Assembly: GCA_029932465.1 (NCBI GenBank)
Contig: JAOZQA010000018.1
Span: 1 to 36,872, forward strand
DNA: 36,872 nucleotides
Direction of reading: 5' to 3'
DNA from: Thermoplasmatota archaeon
GTDB taxonomy: Archaea; Thermoplasmatota; Penumbrarchaeia; Penumbrarchaeales; EX4484-36
This document shows positions 18,001 to 24,000 of the stretch, in pieces. The stretch's first letter is position 1, and each line of letters begins with the position of its first letter. Position numbers: made by a program.

Positions 18001-21000
18001 TGTTTCCCAGCAGCTGAGTGAGCTGGGCGCTGTCTCCCCATACACCCCAGAGGTCCTCATCCACATTCAGTTTGACCTTGCAGGAGGAACCGGAGAGGAA
18101 AAGGCCTGTGGATTTCTCTACAACCTCCTTTATATCTGTCTCCATTTTCAGCGGTTCTCCGCTCCCCTCGGTGAAGGTGAGGAGCTGCTCAGTTATACCC
18201 CTGGCTCTGTATATCTCCTCCTGAGCCCTCTTAAGAAGCTCCGCTGCCTCTCCCTCCTCTCCCAGCTTTGCAGAAAGGGCTGTTATGTAGCCCAGCACGG
18301 CGGTGAGGATGTTGTTGAAGTCGTGGGCTAGACCAGCCGAGAGGTGGCCCAGCGCCTCCAGTTTTTGCCTCTCCAGCCTCTCTTTCTCGATAATCTTTCT
18401 CTCCGTGATGTCCCTGATGACCACGATGTGGCCTCTCACCACCTCCCCCTCCCCCACGAGGGGATACGAGGAGATCTCAACTACCCTTCGGGTGCCGTCG
18501 CTTCTCTCCACCTTCCTTTCCACGGTGTCGCCGGATGCCTCAAGCTCTTTCAGCAGCTTAAGATTTATCCCCTCCAGATAGGGGCAGACCTTCTCAACGC
18601 TCCTCCCTATGGCCTTCTTCTCGGCCATCCCTATCATCTCCTCTGCGGAGGGGTTTATCATGACAATTCCTCCCCCCTCATCCAAAACGAGTATGCCCTC
18701 ACGAATGGATTCCAAGATAGCCAGAACCTTCTGCCTCTCCTCCTCAAGCTCCCTGGTTCTCTCCCTTACAGTCTCCTCCAGACGGTCTCTGTGTCTCCTC
18801 AGCTCTTCATGATATTTCTTTCTCTTAGTTATATCACGCAGAGCCGTCTGGAACCCTATGACTCCTCCGGCGCGTTTTAGGGGCCTTCCGCGATACTCCA
18901 TTACCCTTTTTCCCTGCGGGGTCTCTATGGGAATCTCCCCCCTCACCGGGATCCCGTGGGAGAGCTTCCTTAAATCGGAGCGAAGCAGGGGGTGGTATTC
19001 TGCCGGAAAAAGTTCAAGGATGTTCTTTCCCAACACCTCATTCTTTTTTGTTCCGTAGGCCTCAATTGCTCTGTTCACATCCACAAGCGTGCCATCTAGC
19101 TCCCCTACGGCGATTATGTCCATGGAGTTCTCAAAGAGTTCACGGTATCTCCTCTCGCTCTCCTTCAGCTCCTCTAAAATCCTTTTCTTCTCCGTGATGT
19201 CATTTATGAGGACAAGCTCTGCCAGCCTTCCTTCGAACATTATAAGGGAAACTCTGAGCTCGGCCCTTATCTCCCTGCCGTCCTTCCCTATGAGAATGGT
19301 CTCATATTGGTTCTCAACGTCCTCTCCGGCCATTCTCCGCCGGTACCTCTCCAGTAACTTTTCTCGCTCATCCGGGTGGACGAAGTCTACAAAGGGCTTC
19401 CCAATAATCTCCTCTAACTTATAGCCGGATATGGTCTCAGTGGCAGGGTTGGCGTATTTTATCACGCCATCCTGGATCGTGATTATCCCCTCTGCGGCCC
19501 CCTCCACGAGCCTTCTGAAGAACATCACCCGCTCCCTCTCCTCTTCTTCCTTTTTTCTCATCTGGGTGACGTCCAACACCAAACCCAGTGCGTGCCACTT
19601 TCCGTTCAACTGGAAGGGGGTGATGTGGAGCTCCACGACGATCTCCTTCCCGTCCTTTCTTACGGCTGTCGTCTCCATTGGGCGGTTCAGAAGAGGTCCG
19701 GTGCCGTTTTTGAGGAACCTGCGGAAGCCTTCACGGAAACGGGGAATTGCTATTGGGGGCATTATGAGCTTGTGAAGCATTGTTCCCAGGGCCTCCTCCT
19801 TGCTGTAGCCGAAGATCTTCTCGGCAGCGGTGTTCCACAGAACCACAGAACCGGCGTCGTCAATTATGATAAGAGGATAGGCTACAGAATCCGCTATCCT
19901 GTCTAAAATATTCTTGCACCTAGATAACTCATTGAGCCCTATAATATCACCTCCCGCAGGCTCATCTCTTCTCTACTAGGAATATGTTATTGGCTGAGCT
20001 CACATTAAGGTTATGTGTATATAAGCTTTTGCGGATTATTATCATCCCACGTCAAAACCTCTTATTCGGGTTTTAAAATCTATTACGCTGTTTCAGGGAA
20101 AATATTTATGTGTGGTTATTTCTTTTCTCCTTCAGTTTTTCAGCCGGGGTGAGAATTGTTGCGCAACGGTTTTATACCTTGAACCCGACTTTCTACCCAG
20201 GCAGCTAAAGGAGGTATGGAAAACGGGCCTTAAGGACCTCTTCCGGGGCTCCCGCAGGAGGCGGGAGGATACGACGTCTATAGACGAGAGGTTACTCAAG
20301 GAGCTGCTCCAAGAGCTCAAGAGCCTCCGGAAGGAGAAGAGAGAGGACAAGAAGAGGATCGAGGAGCTCAAAGTGGAAATTGAGAAGCTGAAGAGCTCCG
20401 TGGGAAGGAGGGCGGAGGCGGACGCCACAGCGGAGGAGGCGCCCAGGGAGTACCTCTCGGCGGTTCTCGAGCTGAGGCTAATGGGGGTTGATCCGAAGCA
20501 TACCTTTGACACCTTCCTTGTGGACTCCAACAACGCCTTCGCCTACAGGGTGGCCAAGAATATCGTCGAGAGGCCGGCAGCGGTCTACAATCCTGTTTTT
20601 ATATATGGAGATGTGGGGACAGGAAAGACTCACCTACTGCACGCCATAGCAAACGAGATGAAGAACGCCCATCCCACCCTGAAGATACTCTACGCCCCAG
20701 TGGAGAGGTTCATAAACGAGATGATCAAGGCGGTGGACCTAAACCGGCTTGAGAACTTCCGCAAAAGGTTCAGGGAGGTGGACGTTCTTCTCATAGATGA
20801 CGTCCAGTTCCTGAGCGGGAAGTTGGAGACCCAGATGGAGTTCTTCCACACCTTCAACGAGCTCTACAGCAGGGGGGCACAGATCGTTCTCTCCTCTGAC
20901 AGGCCCCCTGTGGCTTTAGAGCAGCTGGAGAGCAGGCTGCGCTCACGCTTCCAGGCGGGACTCATTCTAGACGTGAAACCCCCCGGGCACGAGACAAGGG

Positions 21001-24000
21001 TGAAGATACTGAAGTTGCGCTGTGCCGAGCTCGGGGTGAAGCCCCCGGAGGATGTTCTGGAGAAGATATCAAAAATGTTCCCAGCGAATGTGAGGGAGAT
21101 GCTGGGGGCTTTGAATAGGGTGGTGGCCTACTCCCAGTTCATGGAGGTCCCCATGACGGTTAAACTTGTGGACGACGTGCTGCGGGAGGTTATGTTAGAA
21201 CCCAGGAGGCTTGAATATGAGCCCCCCCTCACCGTGGAGGAGCGCCCGGAAGAGGAGGAAAGCGTCTCCCTTGAGAGGTCTGTGGATAAAATAGAGAAGG
21301 CCCTAATGGAGGAGCTTGAGAAGATAAAGAGCAGGGGCTCAGAGGAAGTCTGAGAACTTCTCCGCCAGAGAGGGTTTTGCCTCCTTCACTGCTTTTAAGA
21401 TGGCCGCCGTTGAGAGCCCCTCCAGTTTTATCGAACCCACAGCCTCAATAAGATCGTTCATCTCCTCATCGGTAAGCTCAAGGAGTTTCTCCTTGGCTAG
21501 GTAGTTCCTTGCAAGCTGGACCTCCATCTTCTTCCTCCAGCCCTTCTCGTACTCGGCGAGGGCCTCTTCCGGGGATAGCTTGCCCTGGACCATCCTTCCG
21601 AGGGCCTCCCCCAGAACCCTCCCAGCAACAGCGCCGTTTACGACACCGCCGCCGGTTAGGGGGTCAATCATCCTGGCTGAGTCCCCCACTGCGGCGAACC
21701 CCGGGAGGGTTACAGATTCCGGGGGCATGCTCACTGATACCGCACCCCCGTTTATCTCCACGATCTTAGCCCCTTTGAGGTCCTCCCGGGAGGCTATGAA
21801 CTTCTCAAGGTACCTCCTTGGGGTGGCCCCCCTCTCGGAGAACATGAGGTTCACTCCGATCCCCACGTTTGCCACCCTCTCGCTCTTGGGGAAGATCCAG
21901 ACGTAGCCCCCGGGGGCGTAGCCCTGTCCTACGTAGAACTCGGTGTAGAGCGGGTCGGCCTTGACCCCCACCATCTCGTATTGAATGCAGATGTCAACGT
22001 CCCTGAGCTTAAGGGAGGTCTTCAGCCCTGCTTCCCTTGACAGACGGGCCTCGAAGCCGTCGGCGGCCACCGTGACTGTCGCCTCTATCCTGTATTCCTC
22101 GCCCAGATGCCTTGCCAGGACCCCCTTTATCTTTCCGTCCTCTTTTATGAGGGAGGTTGCTGTGGTCTTCACCATGATGTCTGCCCCTTCCACTGCAGCC
22201 AACTTTGCCAGGTGTTTGTCGAAGATGTCCCTCCGTATGATGTATCCCGTCTCGTTTCCGGCGAGGTCCTCGGAGAGCTCAAACTCCGAGCCGGAGGGGG
22301 AGATGATCTTGGCCCCTGCCACCTCATTGGCTATCCAGCTCTCCAGGGGCTCAAGCTCAATCTTCTGAAGGATCTTCTTTGATACCCCCTCGCCGCACCT
22401 TACCGGGGAGCCCACTTCCTGCCTCTTCTCCAGCATGAGAACCTTCGCGCCGCCTCTGGCGGCGTAGCGGGCGACGCTGCTGCCAGCCGGCCCGCCGCCA
22501 ACCACCACCACGTCGTACTTCAGGGTCTTCACTTCTCCACCCCCTCCATGGTTATGGCCCCCACGGGACACGCCCTTACGCATATCCCGCAGAGAGTGCA
22601 CCTCTCATGGTCAACCTCAACGTAGGTCTCTTTAAGAGTGAGCGCCAGGGTGGGACAGACGCCCACACAGGTGCCACACCAGAGACACTTCTCCTTATCT
22701 ACCCTTATCATCTCACTACCTCCTTCAGGTATCTATCCAGTCCGTCACATACGGGAACTATTCTTAGGTCTTCATCTACCGTGACTGCGGGACACCCCTC
22801 CCGGGGGATCTCCACCGATAGGTCAACGAGAGCCACCGCTATGGAGTGCCATAGGAGGTCGGCTATTGTGCCCTTCCCCGGGTGTTGGATAATGTCCCAG
22901 AGGATTTCAAGAAAGAGCCTGCTGTCCACCCCGCTGGGGAGCTCCTCCCATTCAATGTAGCGCTTAAGTCTGGTCTTCAGTTTTATGCCCCCCAGGCGTG
23001 CTCTGAAAGCCGTGAGTGGAGTGTTTTCTGCCTCCTCCAGGAGCCTCTCCACGTCCTCTTTAAGTTTCCACCACCGGATTATACGCGTCAGAGGAGAATA
23101 CATCTCCCCGTCGCTCACAAGAATGGTCCCGCTTAAATACTCCGCTGGGGGGAGCCTTGAGGGGTATGGAGAGCCCTTGAGGAGTGAGGAGAGTCTGAAG
23201 AGGTGGGATAGATCCCTCGGTCCGATAAGCTCCCCCTCTTTCAGTCCCAGGGCACCCTCAATGAGCCTTCGTGCATCCTTTCCCCCTCCCCGGGTGACGA
23301 AGAGCACCCCCCTTACAACATCCTGGTTCTGAAGGGCGAAGTTTAGGGAGTCCTCTGCCACTTCCTCCCGGGAGGTTCCGTTTAAGTTCACAATAAGAAG
23401 GGTTGAGAGGCAGACCGGCTGTAACCTTCTGAAGGTGGAGTCGGGGGCCATTCTTATTCTGCGGAAGTTGGAGATAGCGCCCCGCAATGTCTCAAGCGCC
23501 TCCCCCTCTCCTGGATAGCGCATCACGGCGGTGTGAAGATGGGAGTCCACAAGAAGCTGAAGGTACCCTCTGTCCCGGGAGAGCCTCTCCCCCCCGGTGG
23601 TCATGGAGATCTCTGAGAAGCCGAGTTCCCAGGCGCTTTTGATAAGATCCATTATGTGTGGGACCTCTGCGGGCTCACTTCCGGTGAAGAGCACTCCGGG
23701 GGGAGGGGGTGATATGCTCCCCCTGAGCATTTGCAGGGCCCTTTCAGCCCTATCCCTCTCCTCGTCCACGTTTACGATACCCAGGAGGGCCTCAAGCTCC
23801 CTTGCGGTCCACATCTTGAGCATGTTGAACACCGAAAAAGGTGGAGTGCAATTAAAGATATTTATATATAACCGTTTTGTAGTCCAACACGCTACAAAAA
23901 ATGCCACACCCAAACTTAAATATTTTGTTTGTGATACGAGGGACGATGAACGGCGATATGGGAAGGATTCTTAGAATACTGGCACCCACTTCTGGGAGTT

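What a model noticed while it worked through the whole genome (the two positions that open the first line are those of the whole stretch)
20112..21353. Two DnaA-derived AAA+ ATPases without DNA-binding domain IV in an archaeon
This archaeon, which has two orc1/cdc6 genes, also encodes two proteins built on the bacterial initiator DnaA AAA+ domain but lacking DnaA domains I and IV: g01186 (coiled coil + AAA+, all catalytic motifs intact) and g00934 (C55:10785-14474; DUF2226-like N-domain, ~800-aa helical repeats, AAA+ without the sensor-II Arg, double zinc ribbon). They are conserved in the order and lie among archaeal genes, so DnaA's ATPase was domesticated for a role other than binding DnaA boxes.
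Evidence so far: g01186 50% identical to DnaA residues 118-352 (E 1e-74), g00934 39%; beyond a few close kin the best database hits are bacterial DnaA with domain IV. An HMM of domain IV finds nothing in the proteome (best E 0.21, call 66); Pfam shows no DnaA_N or Bac_DnaA_C. Bac_DnaA hits in 14 of 14 sister-family genomes and at E<1e-50 in 7 other families, short and long forms both present; neighbours are archaeal (IDI-2, TtuA, RadB; call 126); in one relative it is fused to a pilus/archaellum ATPase. N-domain lead: Atlas DUF2226/PatA_N score 0.89-0.91.
(Added by a program. Inside this text positions count along the whole contig: contig position 1 is position 1 of the stretch shown here. "Call 12" and the like, gene names such as g00115 and contig names such as C1 are that model's own, and its searches are not shown. 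The text may have been shortened before it was handed on; [...] marks where a part breaks off. The agent that wrote the report below was given it as the finding of a first reader that could run no searches.)

Follow-up and report, generated by a model that had tools for sequence, protein, structure and literature searches.

The report
Archaeal membrane-tethered DnaA-type ATPase pair
This archaeon carries two genes built on the ATP-binding core of the bacterial replication starter DnaA but without its DNA-box-reading part; the core recurs across the phylum fused to signalling-type domains and in some bacteria inside pilus and chemosensory operons, so it likely works as a membrane-tethered, ATP-controlled assembly switch rather than in replication.

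Summary
Confirmed and extended. Window 20112-21353 encodes an intact DnaA domain III (about 50% identical to bacterial DnaA) with no domain I or IV; no domain IV gene was found in 37 class genomes.

New here: the gene likely starts at ACG 20223, and its N-terminus matches a family-wide hydrophobic-then-basic motif predicted to bind membranes. In 11 order genomes with both forms, at least one copy is always catalytically intact, and every degenerate copy keeps the arginine finger.

Outside the order the core is fused or adjacent to DUF835 (inactive KaiC) in 20 of 21 genomes. A degenerate copy occurs in 47 of 47 genomes of one Poseidoniales family. Bacterial relatives sit in PilT / small-GTPase / PATAN-TPR / CheRDB operons.

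Best reading (0.55): a membrane-tethered ATP-dependent oligomer acting as a scaffold or switch. Main rival (0.2): single-stranded DNA capture, since 7 of 8 pocket residues are kept. Against a motility role: no co-occurrence with archaellins, and no DUF835 link within this order. The tree is unresolved. Ten literature searches found no description; one key KaiC paper was unavailable. The scan found related DUF835-fused and Gemmatimonadota forms before on other DNA.

The parts
20164..20176 (+). Predicted archaeal promoter (TATA-like box), lying inside the 5' part of the called ORF
   Evidence: 13 of 13 bases identical in G001, while the flanking DNA carries an indel. Promoter function is inferred.
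20210..20225 (+). Shine-Dalgarno GGAGG and likely non-canonical ACG start (20223-20225)
   Evidence: Spacing is 8 nt; the genome's mode is 7-8. G001 has the same ACG 7 nt after GGAGG. The codon aligns with the family's Met. Inferred, not shown.
20223..21353 (+). Likely real gene (376 aa): short form of the DnaA-domain-III ATPase
20223..20264 (+). Predicted membrane-targeting segment: short hydrophobic-faced stretch followed by a basic cluster
   Evidence: Motif in 20 of 26 short forms against 0 of 510 control N-termini. A post hoc rule gives 31 of 33 against 0 of 435. Low model confidence here.
20280..20405 (+). Long helix, predicted coiled coil
   Evidence: Helix 20-61 of the model; conserved in the order.
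20487..21194 (+). DnaA domain III AAA+ core with intact Walker A (K, 20625), Walker B (20796-20801), Arg finger (20946) and sensor II (21093); 7 of 8 ssDNA-pocket residues identical to B. subtilis
21252..21344 (+). Conserved acidic C-terminal helix in place of domain IV
   Evidence: Helix 344-374 of the model; conserved in the order's short forms.
21339..22601 (-). Convergent archaeal geranylgeranyl-reductase-family gene (context; also the neighbour in G001)
17243..19846 (-). Divergent PAS histidine kinase-receiver gene (context only; not the neighbour in G001)

Best explanation
The gene encodes an intact DnaA-type ATPase core without DNA-box or helicase-loading domains, and it likely anchors to the inner face of the membrane, where it would form an ATP-dependent head-to-tail oligomer that acts as an assembly switch for a protein scaffold. 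Step 1 (shown in sequence): the ATP-binding and hydrolysis residues and the Arg finger are intact. Step 2 (inferred): the N-terminal motif binds the membrane and the coiled coil spaces the ATPase from it. Step 3 (inferred): the long paralogue on C55, catalytically impaired here but keeping its Arg finger, co-assembles with it and brings a DUF2226 domain, a roughly 800-aa repeat rod and zinc ribbons. Step 4 (inferred from fusions and operons in relatives): the output goes to KaiC/DUF835-type and pilus-associated proteins, giving spatial or on/off control of a surface or cytoskeletal structure. The specific target in this genome is not identified.
For: No domain IV in 37 class genomes. ATP-site residues are retained at 0.90 in 87 archaeal domains, against 0.76 for other canonical-conserved sites. 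The N-terminal motif is in 20 of 26 short forms against 0 of 510 controls and recurs in about 10 cluster representatives. G063 has a different predicted anchor, a transmembrane helix (read by eye). Among 11 genomes with both complete copies, 7 keep only the short form intact, 2 only the long form, 2 both and none neither; the Arg finger is kept in 11 of 11 degenerate copies. Outside the order, DUF835 is fused in 17 of 45 genes and fused or within 1.5 kb in 28 of 45, covering 20 of 21 genomes; the class has only about 1-20 DUF835 genes per genome. Single cases: fusion to a pilus ATPase in a pilin/T2SSF operon, an upstream MamK-family actin, and two downstream Ras-like GTPases. In 20 bacterial loci a small GTPase (15) or Roadblock gene (3) lies directly upstream, a DUF4388-TPR gene directly downstream (18), CheR next (17), and PilT within four genes (14). 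PATAN domains bind the pilus ATPase PilB1 (abstract of bioRxiv 10.1101/2021.06.11.447907).
Against: Within this order, 0 of 36 genes have DUF835 fused or nearby, and the neighbours are housekeeping genes. This genome has no Roadblock, CheW or MamK-like gene. There is no co-occurrence with archaellins: in family f14, 3 of 8 module-positive against 3 of 15 module-negative genomes, p 0.62; four paralogue-rich class genomes lack archaellin hits, while f20 has them in 38 of 39 genomes without the module. The ssDNA-pocket residues are not significantly relaxed (p 0.18). The motif rule was written after seeing the family, the 11-residue hydrophobic moment did not separate family from controls, and the model shows no helix there. 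The reciprocal pattern rests on about three independent events. The bacterial loci are from related phyla, and six are strongly degenerate. DUF2226 against DUF4388 gives HHalign probability 3.7%, E 0.011.
Confidence: 0.55

Rival explanations
1. A membrane-tethered single-stranded DNA (or RNA) capturing filament. It uses DnaA's domain III pocket without origin specificity, for example to receive DNA taken up through pili or to hand it to recombination proteins.
For: 7 of 8 pocket residues are identical to B. subtilis in the window protein (residues from PMC10721633 and PMC8287927 passages). E183, R202 and E228 are kept at 0.90-0.94 in 68 intact archaeal domains. A RadB-like gene is directly downstream in G039 and G049, and there is a pilus ATPase fusion in G054.
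Against: N187, I190 and K222 are kept at only 0.63, 0.53 and 0.53, and the tandem bacterial domains keep 0.32 and 0.52 of the set. The sister family mostly has N187D. The bacterial operons are chemosensory, not competence operons. The retained residues may serve the subunit interface instead.
Confidence: 0.2
2. A replication or segregation accessory: it tethers the chromosome or replisome to the membrane, or helps load MCM beside Orc1/Cdc6.
For: It belongs to the initiator clade of AAA+ proteins, is near-universal in the order and retains the ssDNA pocket.
Against: No replication gene appears among the conserved neighbours scanned. It was not found in 215 of 301 phylum genomes or in class family f7, 0 of 4. 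There are up to 10 matches per genome, with shuffled signalling domains. Poseidoniales copies lack the Arg finger and sensor II (read by eye).
Confidence: 0.1
3. Two independent solo proteins with unrelated roles, such as a protein-remodelling ATPase; the pairing and the signalling link are incidental.
For: The genes are unlinked, have housekeeping neighbours, and show no DUF835 link in the order. The long form survives without its AAA+ domain in G003, G005 and G006.
Against: Reciprocal degeneration with the Arg finger kept. DUF2226-domain and DnaA-like genes occur in the same 8 of 23 f14 genomes and are adjacent in 52 of 55 Poseidoniales-type genomes.
Confidence: 0.1
4. Bacterial contamination, or a recent decaying DnaA transfer, or an Hda-like inactivator.
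For: About 50% identity to bacterial DnaA.
Against: Archaeal neighbours on both contigs, 0.07% contamination, orthologues and synteny across the order, no beta clamp or full DnaA to act on, and an Hda model score of 104 against a cut-off of 195.
Confidence: 0.02

Closest known systems
Bacterial replication initiator DnaA, domain III (PF00308, TIGR00362; PDB 8BV3/8BTG, 2Z4R, 2HCB/3R8F)
   Same: Same fold (rmsd 1.7-2.0 A over about 235 residues), 48-50% identity, all ATPase motifs and most ssDNA-pocket residues.
   Different: No domain I or IV. It has a predicted membrane anchor, a coiled coil and a C-terminal helix instead. It is found in archaea that have Orc1/Cdc6, and relatives are multi-copy and domain-shuffled.
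Hda (DnaA regulatory inactivator, TIGR03420; PDB 5X06, 3BOS)
   Same: A DnaA-derived AAA+ domain without domain IV. The degenerate long form keeps an Arg finger that could act in trans, as Hda's does (Hda mechanism recalled).
   Different: Only about 20% identical to Hda against 48% to DnaA, and below the Hda cut-off. No beta clamp or canonical DnaA in the genome.
IstB / DnaC initiator-clade helper ATPases
   Same: DnaA-like ATPases without a DNA-box domain that oligomerise and recruit a partner (recalled).
   Different: Weak matches only (IstB score 57 against cut-off 200); no transposase beside either gene.
Archaeal KaiC/DUF835 network and bacterial MglA-MglB-PATAN type IV pilus polarity modules
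   Same: DUF835 (inactive KaiC, PMC5847659 passages), KaiC, small GTPases, Roadblock, DUF4388 and pilus ATPases are the recurring fusion partners and neighbours of relatives.
   Different: No DnaA-type ATPase is mentioned in the papers or passages I could search. This genome lacks Roadblock and CheW, and its two genes are not linked to DUF835.

Membership tests
DnaA replication initiator | Domain III AAA+ with Walker A/B, sensor I, Arg finger, sensor II | tested here: met
   Window protein intact. The C55 long form does not meet it (Walker B D>N, sensor II R>M).
DnaA replication initiator | Domain IV helix-turn-helix that binds DnaA boxes | tested here: not met
DnaA replication initiator | Domain I (helicase and DnaA interaction) | tested here: not met
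   No DnaA_N; a domain I HMM has no hit in the genome ORFs.
DnaA replication initiator | TIGR00362 above cut-off | tested here: not met
   325 against 343.9 for the window protein and 170 for the long form. The G054 pilus fusion does pass (368), so the model mislabels some members.
DnaA replication initiator | ssDNA (DnaA-trio) pocket residues | tested here: inconclusive
   7 of 8 identical in the window protein; 0.69 retention in intact archaeal domains against 0.86 for other sites, p 0.18 on the 4 sites that qualified. Binding not tested.
DnaA replication initiator | Bacterial replisome context (beta clamp) | tested here: not met
   No PF00712 match; two Cdc6_C genes; genome 94.6% complete.
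Hda | Hda family model above cut-off; clamp partner | tested here: not met
   104 against 194.8; no clamp.
IstB transposon helper | Family score and adjacent transposase | tested here: not met
   57 against 200; neighbours.
DUF2226 (long form N-domain) | Pfam PF09987 match | tested here: inconclusive
   8 of 31 members at E<=0.5, best 3e-7; the G000 copy scores 19.3 against cut-off 22; Atlas 0.89.
PATAN / DUF4388 (long form N-domain) | Profile or structural homology | tested here: inconclusive
   HHalign probability 3.7%, E 0.011 over 51 columns; Atlas 0.84; best structural Z 5.3.
Membrane-targeting amphipathic helix (MinD/MreB-like, recalled) | Short hydrophobic face plus basic residues that bind lipid | tested here: inconclusive
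   Pattern enriched; lipid binding cannot be tested here.
MglA/MglB polarity module | Roadblock (MglB) and chemosensory partners in the same genome | tested here: not met
   No Robl_LC7 or CheW in G000; present beside bacterial relatives.

The most novel reading that the evidence does not exclude
DnaA's filament-forming engine was split off once from replication and became a family of membrane-associated ATP switches shared by Thermoplasmatota (including Marine Group II) and several bacterial phyla. In archaea it is wired to KaiC/DUF835 and DUF2226 scaffolds, and in bacteria to small-GTPase, PATAN and chemosensory control of type IV pili. In this order it works as an active/inactive hetero-oligomer, and the active subunit is translated from an ACG start.
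Probability: 0.3. Interest if true: 0.88.

Novelty: new variant of a known kind. Interest (0 to 1): 0.72.

Why it matters
The well-known initiator-clade AAA+ proteins (DnaA, Orc1/Cdc6, Hda, DnaC, IstB; recalled) all work on DNA. A conserved DnaA core tethered to membranes and wired to KaiC-type and pilus-control proteins would be a non-DNA use of that engine, and would give a testable handle on spatial control in uncultured Thermoplasmatota. That includes Poseidoniales, which lack identifiable chemotaxis genes (PMC6461757 passage).

It also corrects annotation: database sources label several of these archaeal proteins as replication initiator DnaA. The short form is a 376-aa protein that can be expressed and compared directly with B. 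subtilis DnaA, so the main rivals can be separated with simple biochemistry.

Tried and rejected
Complex prediction (AAA+ domain with DUF835) was not available, so nothing was folded. No RNA holder was listed for the gene; this says nothing about expression.

Fold searches of the DUF2226-like domain gave no clear match: Foldseek had no hit at E<=0.001, and the best VIA-align Z was 5.3. This does not show a new fold. The sigma-70 promoter scan found nothing and does not cover archaeal promoters.

An archaellum link was tested and not supported. Pilus ATPases are in 37 of 37 class genomes and DUF835 in 36 of 37, including the family that lacks the module, so co-occurrence is uninformative. The 11-residue hydrophobic moment did not discriminate.

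Signature residues shared by domain-IV-less proteins (L161, N166, Y237, G267) also occur in Aquifex DnaA, so I do not count them as evidence of one origin. AU tests rejected neither 'archaea one clade' (p 0.54; 0.08 with a faster model) nor 'all domain-IV-less on one side' (p 0.71; 0.12). The long form's placement with tandem bacterial domains is a long-branch result and was ignored.

Rows dropped: L167 (an ABC/sigma-54 locus with a partial hit), L090 (an IstB beside a transposase) and one split-gene fragment in L071. Long-branch rows, including the C55 long form and the Poseidoniales copies, were left out of the 43-row tree.

Literature: of ten searches, searches returned nothing, searches returned unrelated papers, and searches returned background only. 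'DnaA' occurs 0 times in the main text of PMC3914693, PMC5847659, PMC4858521, PMC6393860, PMC9258230, PMC11237513 and PMC6461757. Supplements were not read.
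Full report
Observation. The ORF at 20112-21353 encodes a DnaA domain III (Pfam Bac_DnaA E 3e-62) with no domain I or IV. It aligns without gaps to B. subtilis DnaA 111-346, which gives the residue numbering used below. The AlphaFold model (pLDDT 81.5) shows a long helix, the AAA+ core and one C-terminal helix, and matches DnaA domain III at rmsd 1.7-2.0 A. 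The second gene (C55:10785-14474, 1229 aa) has a DUF2226-like N-domain, a roughly 98-aa repeat (score 0.17-0.21 against a shuffled maximum of -0.26), a degenerate AAA+ domain and a double zinc ribbon. The genome is 94.6% complete with 0.07% contamination. It has two Cdc6_C genes, no Bac_DnaA_C and no beta clamp, and the neighbours are archaeal. Close homologues carry the source labels Thermoplasmata or Thermoplasmatota.

The real start. The order's short forms begin with Met-Gly, two hydrophobic residues, Asp-Trp, a hydrophobic residue and a basic cluster. In the window, the residue aligned with that Met is an ACG codon at 20223, 8 nt after GGAGG; the modal spacing among 510 control starts is 7-8 nt. 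G001 has ACG at the same place, a 13-base identical TATA-like box upstream, and an indel in between. G001 also has an in-frame TTG 1 nt after GGAGG, which the window lacks. I infer a 376-aa protein from a non-canonical start. This is not shown.

Predicted membrane anchor. The motif matched 20 of 26 short forms and 0 of 510 control N-termini. A looser rule written after seeing the family matched 31 of 33 (nine of them chosen because they showed the motif) and 0 of 435 controls; the 7-residue moment was 0.60 against 0.37. The 11-residue moment did not discriminate, and the model is low-confidence there. The likeness to MinD and MreB membrane helices is recalled.

Distribution. Bac_DnaA matched 33 of 41 relatives at E<=0.001 and 37 of 301 phylum genomes at E<=1e-15. 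In the 61 loci checked first, no match extended past position 372 of a 455-position DnaA profile. Bac_DnaA_C was found in 0 of 37 class genomes. A profile of six divergent copies matched 86 of 301 genomes, including 47 of 47 in f30 and 8 of 23 in f14; one member of each family is labelled Poseidoniales by its source. These copies keep the Walker motifs but lack the Arg finger and sensor II (read by eye). The DUF2226-like domain matched 95 of 301 genomes, including the same 8 f14 genomes, and is adjacent to the divergent ATPase gene in 52 of 55. It also occurs without the ATPase in five families, in DUF835 or coiled-coil proteins.

Partners in archaea. Outside the order, among 45 genes from 21 genomes, DUF835 is fused in 17 and fused or within 1.5 kb in 28 (20 of 21 genomes). 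DUF2226 is fused in 11, and KaiC is within 1.5 kb in 3. Class genomes hold 1-20 DUF835 matches (36 of 37 positive), so I estimate chance adjacency at a few percent. Other fusions are TPR, HEAT, zinc ribbons, an E2-like domain and a pilus ATPase in a pilin/T2SSF operon. Single neighbours include a MamK-family actin, two Ras-like GTPases and RadB-like genes. Within the order, 0 of 36 genes have a DUF835 link, and the conserved neighbours are housekeeping genes. This genome has 3 DUF835, 12 KaiC-like, 4 pilus-ATPase and 2 archaellin matches, but no Roadblock, CheW or MamK.

Bacterial relatives. A search of longer proteins found domain-IV-less fusions labelled Gemmatimonadetes (small GTPase plus two cores), Sumerlaeota (TPR), Hydrogenedentota (MshEN) and Fermentibacteria. 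A profile search added many tandem forms. I fetched 58 loci and examined 21 non-canonical ones, dropping L167. Of the other 20, from WOR-3, TA06, Stahlbacteria, one Gemmatimonadetes and unnamed bacteria, 15 have a small GTPase and 3 a Roadblock gene directly upstream, 18 a DUF4388-TPR gene directly downstream, 17 CheR next, and 14 PilT within four genes. Names come from one representative per cluster. 'MglA-like' is my reading of Arf/Ras hits. The Gemmatimonadetes locus L110 lacks this operon.

Conservation. ATP-site residues are retained at 0.90 in 87 archaeal domains, against 0.76 for 57 other canonical-conserved sites. Of the 87, 68 are catalytically intact. The ssDNA-pocket residues (PMC10721633 and PMC8287927, passages) are retained at 0.69 in intact domains: E183, R202 and E228 stay at 0.90-0.94, while N187, I190 and K222 fall to 0.53-0.63. 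The relaxation is not significant (p 0.18). The window protein keeps 7 of 8, so ssDNA binding is not excluded. Among 11 order genomes with both complete copies, 7 keep only the short form intact, 2 only the long form, 2 both and none neither. All 11 degenerate copies keep the Arg finger. In G003, G005 and G006 the long form has no AAA+ domain. This fits a shared oligomer that needs one active subunit type, but it rests on about three independent events.

Origin. FastTree on 275 domains put most canonical DnaA in one cluster (support 94) apart from most domain-IV-less rows. The careful 43-row tree groups 13 of 15 archaeal and 8 of 8 bacterial domain-IV-less rows at 92/72, with the bootstrap not fully settled. 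AU tests reject neither one domain-IV-less group nor an archaea-only clade. A separate small family nests within canonical DnaA, so domain IV was lost more than once. The direction of transfer is unresolved.

Mechanism. Most likely (0.55), the protein is a membrane-tethered ATP-dependent oligomer that switches or scaffolds partner proteins, with the long form as a co-subunit. The motifs, architecture and distribution are shown; membrane binding, oligomer formation, pairing and target are inferred. A specific motility role in archaea is not supported, because the module does not track archaellins (p 0.62 in f14). The rivals are ssDNA capture (0.2), a replication accessory (0.1), unrelated solo roles (0.1) and artefact (0.02).

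Novelty. It is not a DnaA initiator, Hda or IstB by the tests listed. Ten searches found no description. What I saw of each paper: passages of PMC5847659, PMC8287927, PMC10721633, PMC13643167, PMC4316618, PMC6393860, PMC4858521, PMC3914693 and PMC6461757; term counts only for PMC9258230 and PMC11237513; the abstract of bioRxiv 10.1101/2021.06.11.447907; search listings for the rest; no supplements. Makarova et al. 2017 (mBio e01959-17) on KaiC hubs was not held and could mention these fusions, so novelty is provisional. This scan had noted the DUF835-fused archaeal forms (11 findings) and the Gemmatimonadota forms (3 findings) on other DNA. I read those notes after my own calls, and they are not independent support. 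A look-up for the membrane-helix form returned nothing.

Noticed in passing
window 20223-20225; L054:5094-5096: Likely ACG start codon shared by both genomes of the genus, where the sister family uses ATG; it may limit expression.
   Followed up: partly
L032:2221-3303 (G026): MamK-family actin-like gene above the NCBIfam cut-off, upstream of a DUF2226-DnaA-DUF835 gene; such actins match in 7 of 37 class genomes.
   Followed up: partly
L092:7853-9454 (G063): DnaA core behind a predicted extracellular domain and transmembrane helix, followed by KaiC and a 7TM-DUF835 gene; it looks like a receptor.
   Followed up: partly
L050:738-3902 (G026): Ubiquitin-conjugating-enzyme-like domain (UQ_con E 5e-10) fused to the DnaA core and DUF835.
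   Followed up: no
L096:4735-7353 (G113): Two Ras/Rab-like GTPase genes downstream of a DUF2226-DnaA-DUF835 gene.
   Followed up: no
P0123-P0126, P0173: Proteins of about 1,900-2,000 aa with two DnaA cores; P0123-P0126 also carry an N-terminal MshEN domain (c-di-GMP binding, recalled), and P0173 was not scanned. Host not identified.
   Followed up: no
P0149, P0255, P0264, P0286, P0297, P0301: A separate domain-IV-less family with its own N-terminal domain, nested among canonical DnaA in the trees.
   Followed up: no
L168-L171, L174, L180, L181: DUF2226-like genes, often tandem or beside very long uncharacterised or coiled-coil proteins (up to 1,500 aa), in families lacking the DnaA core; possible cytoskeletal operons.
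   Followed up: partly
L071:2714-6195 (G029): A DnaA-DUF835 gene split inside the AAA+ domain into two overlapping frames.
   Followed up: no
window 26589-30365: 1258-aa protein with two C-terminal winged-helix domains (HVO_0163-like) and an unannotated N-terminal 1,100 aa.
   Followed up: no
window 6400-9410: PAPS reductase-like, EF-Tu-like GTPase and phosphodiesterase-like genes in a row, probably a sulfate activation cluster.
   Followed up: no
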